From positions 11,780,001-11,844,000 of the forward strand of contig NC_042998.1 of the NCBI RefSeq assembly GCF_006345805.1: a DNA stretch of 64,000 nucleotides, in the 5' to 3' direction. Of this stretch, positions 9,257-60,630 are shown piece by piece. The number at the start of each line of letters is the position of its first letter. The first letter of the stretch is position 1. Origin of the DNA: Octopus sinensis. Its lineage: Eukaryota. The translations under genes were made by a program, and so were the position numbers. The notes under the pieces were generated by a model. That model was given only the letters and a program-made list of their open reading frames with translations, had not been told where the DNA came from and did not search any database.

Positions 9257-9300
9257 GCTTCGCTGAGGAAATTATAATAATACCGAAACATGTCCAGAGT
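9257..9300 (+). ncRNA. Minimal type I hammerhead-like motif (PLE type)
   Basis: GCUUCG-CUGAGGA-(eroded stem II)-GAAAC-AU-GUC-CAGAGU. Core intact, palindromic ACAUGU stem III, 5/6 stem I pairs. Confidence 0.55.
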
Positions 9301-9400: not shown

Positions 9401-9896
9401 ATCGTGATGTAAATATGCCATTTGAATATGGCTAACCCCTAAGGGTGGATGTTACTGTAGTTTTTAGCCCCAGGAAGACATCTCCAGCTGGCTATAGACA
9501 TACTTTCTGTGCCCTATCAGTATTTGCAGAGGGAAGCCATCCTTCCCGTCTTCAACTTATGATACACACGGACCCGAGTTTAAAGGTATTGACCTATCAT
9601 CAGCGTGTGACAATCACAGTTGTCGATAGGAAGGAGGTTCTCTTTACAAATACATATACTTTTTCCAGTGTTCAGTGACACTGATATTGAAAAAGTGAAA
9701 TCAAACAATGATAAATATCAGAGTGAGTTATCAACACTAGCAGAAACACATCGTGATGTAAATATGCCATTTGAATATGGCTAACCCCTAAGGGTGGATG
9801 CTACTGTAGTTTTTAGCCCCAGGAAGACATCTCCTCCAGCTGGCTATAGACACCCTTTCTGTGCCCTATCAGTATTTGCAAAGGGAAGCCATCCTT
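9401..9896 (-). mobile_element. Retrozyme-like element: 1.4 copies of a 349-nt monomer containing a hammerhead
   Basis: Direct repeats at 9401-9544 and 9750-9896; HHR at 9565-9609; the target-like sequence aatatattaaat is present on both flanks. Confidence 0.75.
9565..9609 (-). ncRNA. Type I hammerhead ribozyme motif (one core substitution, G12U)
   Basis: CACACG-CUGAUGA-UAGGU-CAAU-ACCUU-UAAAC-UCGG-GUC-CGUGUG. Perfect 6-bp stem I, 4-bp stem II, GUC cleavage triplet. Confidence 0.75.
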
Positions 9897-14685: not shown

Positions 14686-14765
14686 GGAGATAAGGTCGGG
14701 CAATTGTCGTGCTGATGAAGGTTATTGTGTCAGAAACATGTGTCTACAACTATCCTCTTATCTCT
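14686..14765 (+). ncRNA. Type I hammerhead ribozyme motif with intact core and long stem I
   Basis: GGAGAUAAG...GUCGUG-CUGAUGA-(weak stem II)-GAAAC-AUGU-GUC-UACAAC...CUUAUCUCU. Confidence 0.65.
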
Positions 14766-16101: not shown

Positions 16102-17525
16102 CATGTATGTGTGTGAATGTGAGTGTGTGAGTAATTGAAACTGAATGTTTATCTCACGAGATTAGACTTTTGCCACTGCGGTCTTCAGCATGTATATGTG
16201 TTTATGCACAAAAAACATTCACGCAGCAGGTGACAGAGAGAACGAGTGAGAGAAAATAATAGAAACTAACAAGCGAACTCTTTGAGCTAATTCAATTCAT
16301 TTACCAGTTAATAAATGTTTATGCTCAACTGAATGTTTCGTGTAACCTGGATGTGTACTCTATAATATCTGCTTGTAATTTGAAATGCTCTTAGCCTCTC
16401 GCATTAATATCTTCTTAAATTCACAGATTGGTCTTCGAATATACAATTTACTTCAAACTAATTTATATAGTTCACTCTGTTGAAAACAACATTACATATC
16501 TGAATGGATAGTTAACCTCCTCTAGCTTTCCTACATGAATTTAGTTTGTAATATTGGATTGATAAGCATATTTTGTTTTAAAGTTTACGTACGGATATTA
16601 ACTTGTCACAAATTACGTTGTTTTATGCGTTGCTTTATGTGCTGTTTCGGCTTTTTAGCTCTTGCTATTTTCCATTTGGTTATTTGAGTCGATGTTTAAC
16701 GGCAATGTTTATTCATTGAAATTATAGGATTAACGGTTACGTTTATATATTCATGACAGCTAATTCAGAAATGGGGAAGATGGGGGAAGAGAAACGGTTC
16801 CTGCGTTAACAGAAAATGGTGAAAAGAGAGCTGGATTGTGGGTAGTGGCGTAGTTAGTATTTTTCTCAGTGGCTGGGGGTAAAGACAATTTTGTAGCTCT
16901 TACATTTTAATTAACAGGCATGATACACAAGAGAAAACTATAAGTCTTGACCTAATGCCCCATTCATCAGCTGTTAAGCATAAAGGGGTTGGGGGATTGC
17001 GGAGCCCACCACCTGCGAGACCTTGCATAACTTAAGCTAAGTTCATTCTGCAAGACCTTCTACTTCCAAAAATTTTGTCTTCTGGTTCCTTGCCGAATGT
17101 TTCTCACAACTTTACATAATCTTCCTTTCCACATTCTCTTCACAAAGATCACATTTGTTAGGGCCAACCTTGCAGAAATTTACCACATTAACATCCCGTT
17201 TAATCCCCTAATTCCTATTGTCTCAAGCTTTATGAAGACATACAGTTAGTGATCATGTGTGAAAATCACTCTGACTAACCTAATCAGAGAAGTTGACCAG
17301 CTATGATTATAAATTTCCCATCCTTCTCACTCAATGTGTTCCTTAGTTTGCAGAAAAAACAAAGCAGGAGTACACGAAACAGGAGTACGCAATACAATAT
17401 TCCTTTAACTCCGCAAGGAAGAAATCAGAAATGTTGGTATGTTTCAAACAGCGTTCCCAAGCATTTTCAATGGGTTTTTGTTTTTACGATATTAACTCAA
17501 ATCTTTAATTCTCTGAACATATTCA

Positions 17526-17915
17526 GGCGCAGGAGTGGCTGTGTGGTAAGTAGCTTGCTAACCAACCACATGGTTCCGGGTTCAGTCCCACTGCGTGGCA
17601 TCTTGGGCAAGTGTATTCTGCTATAGCCCCGGGCCGACCAATGCCTTGTGAGTGGATTTGGTAGACGGAAACTGAAAGAAGCCTGTCGTATATATGTATA
17701 TATATATATATATGTGTGTGTGTGTCTGTGTTTGTCCCCCTAGCGTTGCTTGACAGCCGATGCTGGTGTGTTTATGTCCCCGTCACTTAGCGGTTCGGCA
17801 AAAGAGACCGATAAAATAAGTACTGGTCTTACAAAAGAATAAGTCCCGGGGTCGAGTTGCTCGATTAAAGGCGGTGCTCCAGCATGGCCGCAGTCAAATG
17901 ACTGAAACAAGTAAA
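17526..17915 (+). mobile_element. SINE family A, full length
   Basis: A box TGGCTGTGTGG, B box GGTTCAGTCCC, CORE-like CTTGGGCAAGT segment, internal (TA)(TG) tract, conserved tail. Confidence 0.95.
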
Positions 17916-18126
17916 TGAAAAAGAAACATGATTATGGATCATTGCATTTGTTCCCATATCTAGAAGCTACCCTTTCCAAGCACTTCAATTTCTCCTTCTC
18001 CATCTGTCTCTCTCACTCCTACTCCCACTCTCTTCCTCTCTCCCTTCTTCTCTCCCTCCCTTCCTCCATCTCTCTCTCTCTCTCTCTCCACCTATCTCTG
18101 CCACTGTGAATGCTCTACAATATGTA

Positions 18127-18525
18127 TACTCCTTTACTCCTTTACTTGTTTCAGTCATTTGACTGCGGCCATGCTGGAGCACCGCCTTTAATCGAGCAAC
18201 TCGACCCGGGGACTTATTCTTTTGTAAGCCCAGTACTTATTCTATCGGTCTCTTTTGCCGAACCGCTAAGTATCGGGGACATAAACACACCAGCATCGGT
18301 TGTCAAGCAATGCTAGGGGACAAACACAGACACACAAACACACACGCATATATACATATATACGACGGGCTTCTTTCAGTTTCCGTCTACCAAATCCACT
18401 CACAAGTCATTGGTCGGCCCGGGGCTATAGTAGAAGACACTTGCCCAAGATGCCACGCAGTGGGACTGAACCCAGAACCATGTGGTTGGTTAGCAAGCTA
18501 CTTACCACACAGCCACTCCTGCACC
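18127..18525 (-). mobile_element. SINE family A, full length, inverted relative to the 17526 copy
   Basis: Reverse-complement match over the entire length. Confidence 0.95.
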
Positions 18526-19802
18526 TATATATTTCACAAAGAGCAAATTTTCAGACTTTCAGTTACGTATTCATAAGAAAAACTTTTGGATGATAACTCA
18601 ACCAGCTAGAAATAGCTGTCAAATCTTCTCCAACTGTGGTAGAAAAGTAGGCGACATGCTGAAAAAAACCCCCAAAACGAGATACATACGGTAGAGTAAT
18701 ATATCGTATTTTGTTCAATTAGATTTGAACTAGGGCGAAATATCAAGAACAACAAAATACGATTCAGTGAATCGTCAAAGATTTATTCACGATCACGCTT
18801 CAAGCTGCAGATTAGAGATATATACTTTCCTCTCTCTCTCTCTGTTTCTTTCTCTCTCTCTCACTCTTTGTTGTGCATGTGACTTTGCCATAGTTACGAG
18901 TTGATGCAATCCTTTTGAAGGAAACTGGGTTGACGGAAATTGTGTGGAAGCCTGTCGGATGTACTTGTATTGGTAATTAATTTAAAATTCCAGCCTCGTT
19001 ACGCTGATTTGCCTTGTGAATCACACAAAGAGTCCGAATGTCGGCAGAATACTCAGCGACTTACACGCTAATTAAACGAATCTGATGTTCAGCCGATCGA
19101 ACAATTGAAAAGCCGAAAGTAAAGGCGGATCCATTTTCCTTCTTAGCTTAACACGTTAAAATAACAAATGTTTTGGATCAAATCGCTAACAGAAATGAGC
19201 AGAACAGACGACACATTAATAGAATGACACGAGAAGTAACGGCCAGATTGTGAATTGTGTTTGTCTTTCAAGTTGTGAACTTTTGGCATATCATTTTTGT
19301 TCATTTGATGAAAAGCATAAAAAAGATATGTTACGAAAACATGGTGTCATAAGGAAGCATATGTATACTTATTTGTATATGCGTATGAGTGTATATATCT
19401 AAGTGTGTTTGTGTACGTATATATATATATATATTTTATTCATATATATGTATATATAATATATATACATATTTTTTTATGATTTATTACCAATGGTTGG
19501 CATGCATAAATAAATTCATAACACACAACATTTATATGAAATGTAAGAGTGCATAAAATATTGGTTTGGGTTCTAACTGGCCTATTTAGTATGTAAGGAG
19601 TCCTGTCAATGGTCTCCTCTCTGTGTGTAAAAATACTTTATGCACTTTATATTTTTGAGAAAGTATATGTATATATATGTATATGTACATGTGTGTATGT
19701 ATATATATATATATATGTATATGTACATGTGTGTATGTATATGTATATATATGGATAAATGTATACATACATACATACATACATACATACACACACACAC
19801 AT

Positions 19803-34966: not shown

Positions 34967-35247
34967 AATACATATGTGTGTGCCTTTTGTTTGGATGTAA
35001 ATTAATTCACAATTATAACGTATAATTTGATTCAACAAATTTTGTGTTTGTGTCATTGATTTGCTAATATCAGTTTTTCTGTTTAGAATGATTTCAATAT
35101 CAATTACGACTAAAAAGAACGCAATGTAATTTAGATCTTTATGTAGATAATTAAAATAAGTATCGCATATATTAATACATTTCAAGAATGGAAGAAGGTA
35201 TAGAAGAAGGCGAGGCAGGCACAGGCTTGGCAGGCGCAGGCGTAGCA

Positions 35248-35642
35248 GACGTAGGCGTGGCTGTGATAAGAAGCTTGCTTCACAACTACATGATTCCGGG
35301 TTCAGTCCCACTGCGTAGTACCTTGGGCAAGCGTCTTCTACTATAGCCTCGGGCCGACCAAAGCCTTGTGAGTGGATTTGGTAGACGGAAACTGAAAGAA
35401 GACTGTCGTATATATATATATATATATATGCATTTGTGTATCTGTGTCTCTCCACCATCGCTTGGCAATCGATATTGGTGTGTTTATGTCCCTATAACTT
35501 AGCGGTTCTGCAAATCAGACCGATAGAATAAGTACTAGGCTTACAAAGAATAAGTCTTGGGCGTCGATTTCTTCGACTGAAACCCCCTAAGATGGTGCTC
35601 CAGCACGGCCACAGTCAAATGACTGAAGCAAGTAAAAGAATA
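35248..35642 (+). mobile_element. SINE family A (older subfamily)
   Basis: Full-length similarity to the 17526 copy. Confidence 0.92.
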
Positions 35643-36729
35643 AATGAATATATATAAAAGAAAAAAGCGAAAAAAGAGACACAAAAATGTATGAATTTTA
35701 AAGGGAGATAACGTGCTAATTCACAATGAGCAGAAAACCTGGTTCGTTTACTTGCTGCACATTATATCAATACGTATATCGTTAATCAGAGATACACTGG
35801 AACGCTATATTAAATGACATTCTCTTTAGTATATACATATAAACTTAAGTAATTATAAATACATTTCTCTGGGGATGCATATGAACAGCTGCAGAGAATG
35901 CAAATTTCCGGTCTGGAAACTAGAAATTTAGTACTACCTTATCTACTTAATTATGGTGTTAAAATAAGCATTTCGAATATTAAAGTGTTGCATTTTAACA
36001 TCTTTTGATTTGGCAAACGTTTATGGGAACGAGTTAAGCTTCACAATCGGCTGAATTACAAGTACATGTTTTGAATTCCTTAGAAGTATCAGGTAAATTT
36101 TACTCTAAATCGGAAGGTAGAGAGTTGAAACATAATACTATAGATATCACTCCCACTTCTTTATTCATATTATTCTTAGAAGAAAACCCCCAAAAATTAT
36201 TCAACTGATGATACAGCTCTTGGCTCTTAAAAACAGCAAAAACAAATCTACGAAATCTCCTTAACAAATTTTATGTATTGATTACAAATGAGTTGAGGCG
36301 GCAATCTGGCGGATTCATTAGAGCACCGGCTTGTATACTCTGGTAGTCATTCCCCACCTGTACAATCTGAATTCAAATTCCTGTCTAGATTGAATGTTGC
36401 ATTTCCGCCTTCTCATTCGGTAATACGAGCTACAATTACGGACGATATCCCGTTTCTTCTCTCTCGGTATCAGCAAAGAGCAAATAAATGAGTACTAATG
36501 TAGCTTATTTATCCAACAAAAGTTGCTTTCATCGGGCTAAAAGTTTTTGCCAGAATTCATAGAGGCAGGCATCAACCAGCTTAGCATCTTAAGATGCCTT
36601 TTACAAATGGCTTCGCACATTTATTATATGAAAAAGAACAAGACTATTCGAGCAAGTTATAAAACGATATTTGATTATCCTATCAGAATAGGAGGGGATG
36701 CAAGTGCCTCATAGACCTGCTCAGACATC

Positions 36730-42096: not shown

Positions 42097-42446
42097 AAAT
42101 TAATAGTTATCGCCATGCTAATACGGCAGTCTTATAAATATAAGACTAAAGCTGTCGCTGATTAGCTCCAAGAGGCCACCGCCTCAAGCTAGCTATTTGA
42201 AACATGCCTGCAGCTGTCTGAATGGCAGGATGAAGCGGCTGACCTCCCTTGTTCGAAGGTTTGTAATGGACGCAGGTTGTGTGTCAAATAGCTAGCTTGA
42301 GGCGGTGGCCTCTTGGAGCTAATCAGCGACAGCTTTAGTCTTATATTTATAAGACTGCCGTATTAGTATGGCGATAACTATTAATTTTCAGTAACGCTGC
42401 CGTAATCTCCTTTAGAGATACTTAGTAATTTTAATATTTCTATTAT
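42097..42446 (+). mobile_element. Non-autonomous PLE/retrozyme-like insert with 104-bp inverted arms and 13-bp TSD
   Basis: Arms at 42097-42200 and 42284-42387 (one mismatch). TSD taaaatagttatg at 42084-42096 and 42447-42459. HHR 3' half GAAAC-AU-GCC at 42199. Confidence 0.8.
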
Positions 42447-42749
42447 TAAAATAGTTATGGTTGGAACGCTTTGATTGTATATCTGCTTAATAAGGTCTTC
42501 CATGAAACGAAACTATGGACACACTGAATAATTGCTGCATATTTCTAATGGAGACCTACTTTGAGAGTCTGCAATAGGGAGAACTAATTGATACAAGTTT
42601 TGAAGAATTATAACTAGCGAGGTGAGAGCGCTAAGCAGTGAGATGTATAAATGCATTGTTATAACCAATTCGAATATGCTAAAAGCACGTTCACTGTGTT
42701 TTGTCATGGAGAAAATTTTTTGCTGTAGACATATGATGTAAATACCCCA

Positions 42750-43599: not shown

Positions 43600-44792
43600 T
43601 AGGGATTCTCAACGTTGGCGGTATCGCTCCTAAGGGGGCGCTGGACATGTCTCAGTAGGTATTAGGATTTAGGAGTCAGTGAAGCGGGGTGGTAGTGAGG
43701 TAACATAATTAACATACTAAATTTTACCTTTAGTAGTAATTATATTATATATGATAAAACTAACAATTGCTATAAAAATAAAATTAGAGATATCGTGGCT
43801 AAAGGCGTTTGAACAAGGAAGATTAAGTTTTGATTTTGTATTTCTGTCTTGAATAGTATTTTTAGGCGTGCAGTCTTGCATGTTATCTTCGCATATTGTT
43901 AAAGAAGACACTGAAAGAAGACTTAAGTTTTAAAGAGTTTACTAATATTAGAATATCTGTTTGTGTCATAAATTCATTTCTGTCTAATATATTTTCTGCT
44001 CAACGGAGTTTACATGAAGAAATTATCGACTTAAAAACGGATTTCAAAGCTGAAGTACATTTTTAACAGCTTAGCTATGAATCATTCTGGCCCACGATGC
44101 AAAACAAGTATCCCCAACATTGGCAAGAAATTAAATTACTGTTCATTGCTCTTCCTTCGTCATATTTAATAGAGAAAGGATTCAGTGCGGCGTCGCAATT
44201 GCTGACTATGACACAAAATACATTTGCAATATGCACCCCCCCCCCCCGATTTATGACTTCTTTTGACTAACACTGAACCTGATATAAGGAATTTAGTTAG
44301 ATTTTATCAGGCACAGGGAAGTCATTGACATGCGATATATACTCTCTTTTACTTTTACTTGTTTCAGTCATTTGACTGCGGCCATGCTGGGGCACCGCCT
44401 TTAATCGAGCAACTCGACCCCGGGACTTATTCTTTTTGTAAGCCCAGTACTTATTCTATCGGTCTCTTTTGCCGAACCGCTAAGTAACGGGGACATAAAC
44501 ACACCAGCAACGGTTGTCAAGCAATGCTAGGGGGACAAACACAGACACACAAACACATACACACACATACATATATATATATACATATATACGACAGGCT
44601 TCTTTCAGTTTCCGTCTACCAAATCCACTCACAAGGCATTGGTCGGCCCGGGGCTATAGCAGAAGACACTTGCCCAAGATGCCACGCAGTGGGACTGAAC
44701 CCAGAACCACGTGGTTGGTAAGCAAGCTACTTACCACACAGCCACTCCTGCGCCTACAAAAAAAAAAAATTAAATAAGGTTAAGAACTACTG
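43600..44792 (+). mobile_element. Internally deleted hAT (Charlie-like) transposon with nested SINE
   Basis: TIRs tagggattctcaac / gttaagaactactg; degenerate 8-bp TSD atctaaag / atccagaa; dimerisation-domain remnant ESFWPTMQNKYPQHW...FIALPSSYLIEKGFSA at about 44010-44210. Confidence 0.82.
44341..44754 (-). mobile_element. SINE family A, full length
   Basis: Near identity with other family A copies. Confidence 0.95.
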
Positions 44793-59872: not shown

Positions 59873-59911
59873 TACACACACACACACACACACACATTGT
59901 ACGTATGCATA

Positions 59912-60322
59912 TACTCTTTTACTCTTTTACTTGTTTCAGTCATTTGACTGCGGCCATGCTGGAGCACCGCCTTTAGTCGAGCAAATCGACCCCGGGACTT
60001 ATTCTTTGTACGCCCAGTACTTATTCTATCGGTCTCTTTTGCCGAACCGCTAAGTGACGGGGACGTAAACACACCAGCATCGGTTGTCAAGCAATGCTAG
60101 GGGGACAAACACACACACACAAACATATAAACACACACTTATATATATATACATATATACGACAGGCTTCTTTCAGTTTCCGTCTACCAAATCCACTCAC
60201 AAGGCATTGGTCGGCCCGGGGCTATAGCAGAAGACACTTGCCCAAGATGCCACGCAGTGGGACTGAACCCGGAACCATGTGGTTGGTTAGCAAGCTACTT
60301 ACCACACAGTCACACCTGCGCC
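59912..60322 (-). mobile_element. SINE family A, full length
   Basis: Near identity with other family A copies. Confidence 0.95.
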
Positions 60323-60630
60323 TATATATGTCTTATATATGTCTATATAAATGATTATTAAAGCTGAATATCTCGTTGGACGTCATTGCGATTTTCAGCT
60401 GAGAACTGTTTGGTCGGTTATTCATATTTCTTGTGTATCTGACCTCGTGACTCCACGTGTTCATTTATTTGCCTTTCGTGTTTGCCGATTAAATGTTATT
60501 TTTTCTGCATTTGTCATTCGGTATTAATTAAAGGGGCGAATGATTATAATTTGATTAATGATTCAAGAGTTGTTAATCCAGTTAAGGTTTTTTTTTCTTA
60601 GTTTCTTTTTACTCTTGCATTGTGTTTGCA

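What the first reader, a model, noticed from the sequence alone, without database searches (positions are those of the whole stretch)
42199..42321. Covarying two-hairpin RNA domain downstream of the hammerhead, shared by two divergent elements
Seen: on the HHR-sense strand, the 9401 element reads GGCAC-AGAAAGG-GUGUC-UA-UAGCC-AGCU-GGAGGA-GAUG-UCUUCC-UGG-GGCUA. The 42097 element reads GACGC-AGGUUGU-GUGUC-AAA-UAGCU-AGCUU-GAGGC-GGUG-GCCUC-UUGG-AGCUA. Stem sequences differ but pairing is kept. The 7-nt and GRUG loops and the AGCU(U)/(U)UGG internal loop are kept. The stem irregularities are G-U pairs on this strand and would be A-C mismatches on the other. Both domains lie roughly 60-75 nt 3' of the GAAAC..GYC half and follow a shared CyUCCCU segment. 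Inference: a selected RNA motif, possibly an RT/endonuclease recognition signal, ligation platform or second catalytic element. I do not recognise it as a described family.
Basis: partly seen in the sequence, partly recalled or inferred. Interest (0 to 1): 0.75.

Follow-up and report, generated by a model that had tools for sequence, protein, structure and literature searches.

The report
Conserved docking hairpins of a retrozyme
The two hairpins are the best-conserved part, after the ribozyme core, of a large family of small protein-free jumping RNAs in this genome, and they likely help these RNAs get copied by the enzyme of Penelope-type retrotransposons.

Summary
The hairpins are real, but they are not a domain shared by two unrelated elements. 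Both window elements are young members of one superfamily of 350-365-nt tandem hammerhead retrozymes, homologous over the whole unit. The motif has at least 5,032 genomic copies (0 in the reversed control) in 43 sequence clusters. It follows 47 of 100 hammerhead-pattern hits at near-fixed spacing. Covariation holds for the inner stem of hairpin 2 (tree-aware p about 0.002). It is borderline for hairpin 1, absent from two sequences alone (p 0.2), and no single pair passes an all-pairs test. The hairpins belong to a larger covarying fold that contains two fixed 3' ends. Two-armed insertions use one end per arm (22 of 24), and three insertions pair a retrozyme arm head-to-head with a Neptune-like Penelope arm. 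Best reading: part of the RNA signal that recruits the borrowed reverse transcriptase (0.5). Against it, five autonomous families lack the motif. The scan found these retrozymes, their two-armed insertions and shared hairpins before, on other DNA of this genome.

The parts
42269..42285 (+). Hairpin P1 (GACGCA/UGUGUC), family A copy
   Evidence: 88.7% of cells paired over 43 rows but mostly one-sided change; tree-aware p 0.03-0.05
42289..42321 (+). Hairpin P2: outer stem P2a, internal loop with conserved C and U, inner stem P2b, GRUG loop
   Evidence: P2b has double-sided changes at 5 of 6 pairs, p 0.001-0.002; P2a nearly invariant, covariation not significant
42199..42208 (+). 3' half of the family A type I hammerhead; 5' half lost in this copy, cut triplet mutated to GCC
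   Evidence: against family copies (core UUGAUAA...GAAAC AU GUC, U3-A8 variant)
42209..42262 (+). 3' strand of the predicted rod that extends hammerhead stem I, including the CCUCCCU segment (42243-42249)
   Evidence: Predicted folds of whole units; a local hairpin alternative shows no covariation (p 0.33)
42324..42399 (+). P3 domain enclosing P4 (42337-42356), P5 (42357-42372) and 3'-end site 1 (about 42385-42388)
   Evidence: P3 p 0.0004 (20 long-tail clusters), P5 p 0.0002; RNAalifold finds P3; end mapping
42406..42446 (+). P6 hairpin (42406-42418) and 3'-end site 2 at the element end
   Evidence: (P6 p 0.025)
42097..42204 (-). Inverted second arm of the same insertion, ending at site 1 and truncated inside P1
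42084..42096 (.). Left copy of a 13-bp target-site duplication (right copy 42447-42459)
   Evidence: identical 13-mers
9814..9865 (-).
   Evidence: (84.8 bits; the model's training set holds this copy)
9566..9608 (-). Family B type I hammerhead (CUGAUGA, stem II, core mutated to UAAAC here, GUC)
   Evidence: against family copies; a relative scores 32.2 bits on Rfam Hammerhead_1, gathering 34
9465..9513 (-). Second, decayed P1+P2 copy 58 nt after the cut site, 3-nt deletion in P2b
   Evidence: (65 bits)
9401..9896 (-). Whole family B insertion, about 1.4 units of 352 nt, ending at site 1 in AT-rich DNA
   Evidence: longest ATG frame 39 aa

Best explanation
The two hairpins are a conserved, strand-specific part of the folded unit of a large hammerhead retrozyme superfamily, and they likely form part of the RNA surface by which a Neptune-type Penelope reverse transcriptase-endonuclease binds this protein-free RNA. 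Shown from sequence: tandem 350-365-nt units, one hammerhead core each, P1/P2 about 60 nt after the cut site, two fixed 3' ends downstream, insertions in TA-rich DNA as two back-to-back arms. Predicted fold: a long rod capped by the hammerhead, and a head of hairpins (P1, P2, P3 with P4 and P5, P6, P7). Inferred: the unit is transcribed, cut and probably circularised; the borrowed enzyme cuts both strands of a TA target and starts one cDNA at site 1 and one at site 2; P1/P2 help to load it, while P3/P5/P6 set the exact start points.
For: 5,032 exact pattern matches vs 0 in control, 758 more for a divergent branch. Motif after 47 of 100 hammerhead-pattern hits, 44 of them within a 9-nt spacing window; 0 profile hits in reversed loci. 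In 29 clusters picked by the hammerhead pattern, P1+P2 has mean top-base frequency 0.78 vs 0.52-0.63 in flanks, and P2b covaries (p about 0.002). G-U outnumbers A-C 51 to 24 on the sense strand. 3' ends are bimodal: A 23 and 30 of 57, B 19 and 22 of 49; in 22 of 24 two-armed insertions the arms use different sites, in none the same. Three head-to-head insertions join a retrozyme arm to a 5'-truncated Neptune-like arm (L054, L287, L396); 2 of 98 visible Penelope 5' ends, where my arithmetic from local density expects about 0.05. Frangieh et al. (PMC11167929, parts 1-2 of 4 read) show two internal RT starts in an AC-rich loop, cutting of both strands, and a required RNA region 3' of the hammerhead.
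Against: No P1/P2 hit in the fetched parts of five autonomous Neptune-like families, including near-full copies with 5' and 3' ends, so the signal is not shared with the likely helper as a SINE tail is with its LINE. The start sites lie in the P3/P5/P6 part, about 65 and 110-125 nt beyond P2, so nothing ties them to P1/P2 directly. No pair reaches E<0.05 in an all-pairs tree-aware test (best: a P2b pair, E 0.28). P1 is borderline and P2a not significant. The conservation figure is somewhat inflated because elements were located with a P1/P2 profile. One autonomous family (Neptune-781) gave 0 of 23 chimeric junctions. No binding, cleavage or expression data.
Confidence: 0.5

Rival explanations
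1. P1/P2 bind a host factor (ligase, export or stabilising protein, or a ribosome-bound factor, as Alu does with SRP9/14, recalled) that protects the RNA circle or brings it near newly made Penelope protein; the enzyme itself reads only the P3-P6 part.
For: Absence from autonomous families. Conservation is largely of sequence (P1, P2a, internal-loop C and U), as for a slowly evolving host protein. A newt retrozyme RNP with the protein NORA is described (PMC2837043, passages); a host ligase is proposed for circle formation (PMC7229834).
Against: The cut ends meet in stem I of the rod, about 60 nt from P1, so a ligation platform there is not needed. No host partner was tested.
Confidence: 0.22
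2. P1/P2 are a folding or tertiary partner that tunes hammerhead cleavage.
For: Near-fixed spacing to the cut site. Penelope hammerheads are weak and protein-assisted (PMC11167929; PMC4209133 part 1).
Against: 53 of 100 hammerhead-pattern hits lack the motif. Stem I sequences vary freely between clusters while P1/P2 do not. No pairing between P1/P2 and the ribozyme shows compensatory change in a helix scan of 15 clusters, 1 of them misaligned.
Confidence: 0.1
3. No specific role: the hairpins are inherited from one ancestor and kept only by general selection for a compact RNA.
For: All members are homologous over the whole unit. Folding z-scores are modest (mean -1.09; 22 of 43 below -1). The all-pairs test is negative.
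Against: P1+P2 is more conserved in sequence than the equally paired rod (about 4.2 vs 8.9 changes per column in the stem I extension; 0.78 vs 0.52-0.62).
Confidence: 0.1
4. The conserved letters are an internal DNA promoter element; the hairpins are incidental.
For: P1 and P2a are conserved mainly as sequence.
Against: Compensatory changes in P2b, G-U bias on one strand and variable loop lengths point to RNA.
Confidence: 0.05
5. A second self-cleaving or ligating ribozyme.
For: Invariant unpaired C and U in the internal loop among the rows aligned, though 22 of those 43 rows were picked by a pattern that fixes them.
Against: No Rfam ribozyme hit on the motif. 5' ends of insertions fall in P1-P2 in 18 of 141 arms, about its share of length.
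Confidence: 0.03

Closest known systems
Metazoan non-LTR retrozymes (Cervera and de la Pena 2020, PMC7229834; Li, Clavereau and Pollet 2026, bioRxiv 10.64898/2026.07.22.740005)
   Same: Short tandem units (mussel 350-390 bp), one type I hammerhead per unit, no long reading frame, thousands of copies, co-occurrence with Penelope-like elements.
   Different: The parts I read (PMC7229834 passages and sections 14, 17; Li parts 1-3 of 5) describe no conserved domain besides the ribozyme. Li et al. tie retrozymes to pseudo-LTRs by homology; here no such homology was found and the link comes from chimeric insertions.
Penelope-like element PAc of Anolis (Frangieh et al. 2024, PMC11167929)
   Same: Two internal RT start sites giving an optional tail, AT-rich targets, both strands cut, required RNA region 3' of the hammerhead.
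   Different: There the region is the start of the coding frame of an autonomous element, the sites are 30-40 nt apart and no structure was mapped in the text read. Here it is a non-coding covarying fold with sites about 43 (B) and 60 (A) nt apart.
Neptune-clade Penelope-like elements (Craig et al. 2021, PMC8557442, passages)
   Same: Inverted 5'-truncated partner copy, tail at one end, (TA)n targeting. Several families with RT and GIY-YIG domains are in this genome.
   Different: They encode the protein and lack P1/P2 in the parts fetched. Clade is assigned from domain order and a Cys motif before the endonuclease, not from a tree.
Minimal and U3-A8 hammerheads of Penelope-like elements (Cervera and de la Pena 2014, PMC4209133, part 1 of 4)
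   Same: Short palindromic helix III suited to dimeric cleavage; family A has the U3-A8 core swap already reported there.
   Different: Concerns the ribozyme only.

Membership tests
Non-LTR retrozyme | Short unit in tandem copies | tested here: met
   Periods 365 (A) and 352 (B)
Non-LTR retrozyme | Type I hammerhead core in each unit | tested here: met
   Rfam Hammerhead_1 32.2 bits in 1 of 10 loci, below gathering 34; both window copies are damaged
Non-LTR retrozyme | No protein encoded | tested here: met
   Longest ATG frames 39 and 52 aa; 4 of 173 motif loci hold Penelope ORF pieces, none as part of the unit
Non-LTR retrozyme | Self-cleavage of the transcript | not testable with these tools
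   Needs in vitro transcription
Non-LTR retrozyme | Expressed as circular RNA | tested here: inconclusive
   Only assembled contigs of runs guessed to be RNA. 76 of 141 arms read through the cut site and 4 stop near it, which fits circles or uncut multimers.
Penelope-mobilised element | Inverted 5'-truncated partner arm and optional 3' tail | tested here: met
   window copy 42097-42446 with 13-bp duplication
Penelope-mobilised element | Co-integration with an autonomous element | tested here: met
   Three head-to-head chimeras with two Neptune-like families; one has a spacer of about 45 nt
Pseudo-LTR of an autonomous Penelope-like element | Motif present in the terminal repeat next to an RT-endonuclease ORF | tested here: not met
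   No hit in five families; other clades in the genome were barely sampled
Known Rfam family (ribozyme or cis element) | Covariance-model hit on the motif | tested here: not met
   10 loci, all 108 hits to E 10 seen; only chance-level overlaps; 150 of 245 window hits seen, none there
Coding relic of a Penelope ORF | Frame kept, protein similarity | tested here: not met
   L087 copy is a separate insertion; indels not in threes; no tblastn similarity

The most novel reading that the evidence does not exclude
The retrozyme carries its own RNA aptamer, absent from the helper, that captures a telomerase-like Penelope enzyme in trans. P1/P2 would be the anchor and the P3-P6 head the pair of template registers, one for each subunit of a dimer, so that one dimer can copy two different RNAs into one break. 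That would be a compact natural template module with a division of labour like that of telomerase RNA (recalled analogy).
Probability: 0.25. Interest if true: 0.8.

Novelty: new variant of a known kind. Interest (0 to 1): 0.5.

Why it matters
What a Penelope-type reverse transcriptase recognises in its RNA is open: the one in vitro study narrowed it to about 170 nt without a structure, and mobilisation of animal retrozymes by these enzymes is still a hypothesis in the papers read. This superfamily gives a covariation-backed map of a 350-nt template, two mapped start sites and named helper families, so the question can be tested with a short RNA and one protein. The element class itself is known, and the scan has met it often in this genome.

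Tried and rejected
Coding origin of the motif (peptide-like reading in L087): rejected. Motif as pseudo-LTR of an autonomous element: L047/L377 looked like one, but 17 close relatives end about 95 nt further on without it, so it is a later insertion with deletion or a one-off chimera. Local hairpin for CyUCCCU: no covariation. Covariation of the rod base: alignment too poor to test. All-pairs covariation test: negative. Pattern scans of viral and metagenome contigs: 0 hits; no eukaryote collection was available, so spread beyond close relatives is untested. Sequencing runs: no RNA holder listed; laid contigs cover the unit under four organism labels but cannot show strand, level or circles. 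My first motif-first hammerhead count (82 full, 28 half, 78 neither, of 188) is not used as evidence: by eye the misses are truncated copies, mutated cores or longer helix III. L299 (same-orientation join through a short TA run) was not counted as a chimera. Literature searches; none listed a paper on this motif. Supplements were not read (Frangieh Figs S1-S2, mussel circle folds in PMC7229834, bioRxiv files closed) and may show related structures.

Full report
Observation. Both sequences stand at the given places and fold into the two hairpins on the hammerhead-sense strand. Two sequences alone do not show covariation (p 0.196). Hairpin 1 differs on one side only. The quoted B copy has no hammerhead before it. 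Neither window copy has an intact core.

What the elements are. The window lies in a 2.7-Gb animal genome rich in TA repeats, probably an octopus (inferred from size and from an earlier scan note, not tested). DNA searches gave 1,879 and 3,139 candidates for the two elements. Copies are tandem units of 365 and 352 nt with one type I hammerhead each; family A has the published U3-A8 core. The two units align along their whole length, also without the motif (z 7.0). The A copy in the window is a two-armed insertion, 42097-42446, between 13-bp duplicates.

Spread. A pattern for the motif has 5,032 matches against 0 in the control, and a pattern for a divergent branch 758 against 0. I fetched the first 100 of 6,940 hammerhead-pattern hits (903 in the control): 47 of 100 carry the motif, 44 of them within a 9-nt spacing window. 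The other 53 are other hammerhead families, chance hits and a few 3'-truncated members. 137 complete elements fall into 43 clusters at 88% identity, median identity between clusters 56%. Contigs of runs under four organism labels cover the family A unit.

Structure. On a sequence-only alignment of 43 rows, 89.0% of 715 cells pair; P2b has double-sided changes at 5 of 6 pairs, P2a at 2 of 5, P1 at 1 of 6. 22 of these rows were picked by a pattern that fixes P2a. A tree-aware count of same-branch double changes gave P2b p 0.001, P3 0.0004 (20 long-tail clusters), P5 0.0002, hammerhead stem II 0.004, P6 0.025, P1 0.03, P2a 0.17. With only the 29 clusters picked by the hammerhead pattern: P2b about 0.002, P5 0.001, P1 0.05, P2a 0.43, hammerhead stem Ia 0.37. 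The p-values are not corrected for the number of helices, and the test missed a known helix, so its power is limited. An all-pairs test found no pair at E<0.05; its top pair of 16,110 in the longer alignment is a P2b pair at E 0.28, and in the motif-only alignment nothing stood out. So P2b is supported by covariation, while P1 and P2a are supported by conservation and G-U bias (51 to 24). The motif is one part of a larger predicted fold: a rod capped by the hammerhead, whose 3' strand holds CyUCCCU, and a head of hairpins.

Insertion footprint. 3' ends fall at two places, about 97 and 158 nt (A) or 140 nt (B) from the start of P2. In 15 of 16 A loci and 7 of 8 distinct B insertions with two arms, each arm uses a different site (one A locus is cut by a contig end). 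5' ends are scattered: 76 of 141 arms read through the cut site, 4 stop within 6 nt of it, 18 stop in P1-P2 (the set includes arms preselected for length and some double counts). This matches the two internal RT starts and two-strand cutting shown for an Anolis element and the structure described for Penelope insertions.

Helper. The genome holds many GIY-YIG Penelope-like elements, some with intact RT-endonuclease frames. Three insertions pair a retrozyme arm head-to-head with a 5'-truncated arm of such an element: L054 (found from the retrozyme side, 1 of 173 loci), L287 (spacer of about 45 nt) and L396 (direct join). From the Penelope side the counts are 1 of 52, 1 of 23 and 0 of 23 visible 5' ends in three families. 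At the local density of about one retrozyme per 47 kb I expect about 0.05 (my arithmetic). This is direct though sparse evidence for the helper. None of five autonomous families carries P1/P2 in the parts fetched.

Mechanism. Shown: architecture, linkage, end sites, chimeras. Inferred: transcription, cleavage, circles, and the role of P1/P2. I put 0.5 on a role in loading the borrowed enzyme, 0.22 on a host factor, 0.1 each on ribozyme tuning and on general compactness. That the element is a Penelope-mobilised retrozyme I put above 0.9.

Known or new. Rfam has no family for the motif. Seven literature searches listed none that describes it; the main text of a 2026 octopus repeat annotation has no occurrence of 'ribozyme' (PMC13282606, passages). 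Supplements were not read. Earlier scan notes on this genome already report these retrozymes, the two-site arms and shared hairpins. New here are the 43-cluster map, the tree-aware tests, the absence from autonomous families and the mixed retrozyme-Penelope insertions. Verdict: a real, likely functional domain of a known class of element; new variant, interest 0.5.

Noticed in passing
L271-L325, 3' region (for example L285 about 2090-2150): An autonomous Neptune-like family (2,367 candidates) has a hammerhead-like fold with an A3-U8 core swap and a GUA triplet (seen by eye). Its longest copies end in the same 11 letters as family A site 2.
   Followed up: partly
L092-L102, 570-980 nt after the ORF: The young 781-aa family has a U3-A8 hammerhead core like family A but a short tail without P1/P2.
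   Followed up: partly
L021:1378-1638, run X11: One contig differs at 32 of 261 letters and the run lists 32 A>G places, which looks like A-to-I hyper-editing of the sense strand. No DNA control of that organism; not seen in X14 of the same study.
   Followed up: partly
window 9263-9294 (+) and 14712-14744 (+): Two more hammerhead-like cores without the motif.
   Followed up: no
L157, L178, L223, L230, L270: A GC-rich tandem family (about 290-nt period) with a hammerhead-like core and no P1/P2.
   Followed up: no
L258, L189, L202, L264, L226 and others, upstream of the rod: A seventh hairpin (P7) is conserved across clusters, 93% paired, without compensatory change.
   Followed up: partly
L156:577-640: A single copy lacks most of P2b, P4 and P5 yet ends at site 1 in a TA-type repeat. 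If it heads a subfamily it would argue against a need for those helices.
   Followed up: no
window 17514-17924, 18120-18535, 35247-35656, 44335-44756, 59910-60332: A dispersed repeat of about 410 bp in five copies, SINE-like, unrelated to the finding.
   Followed up: no
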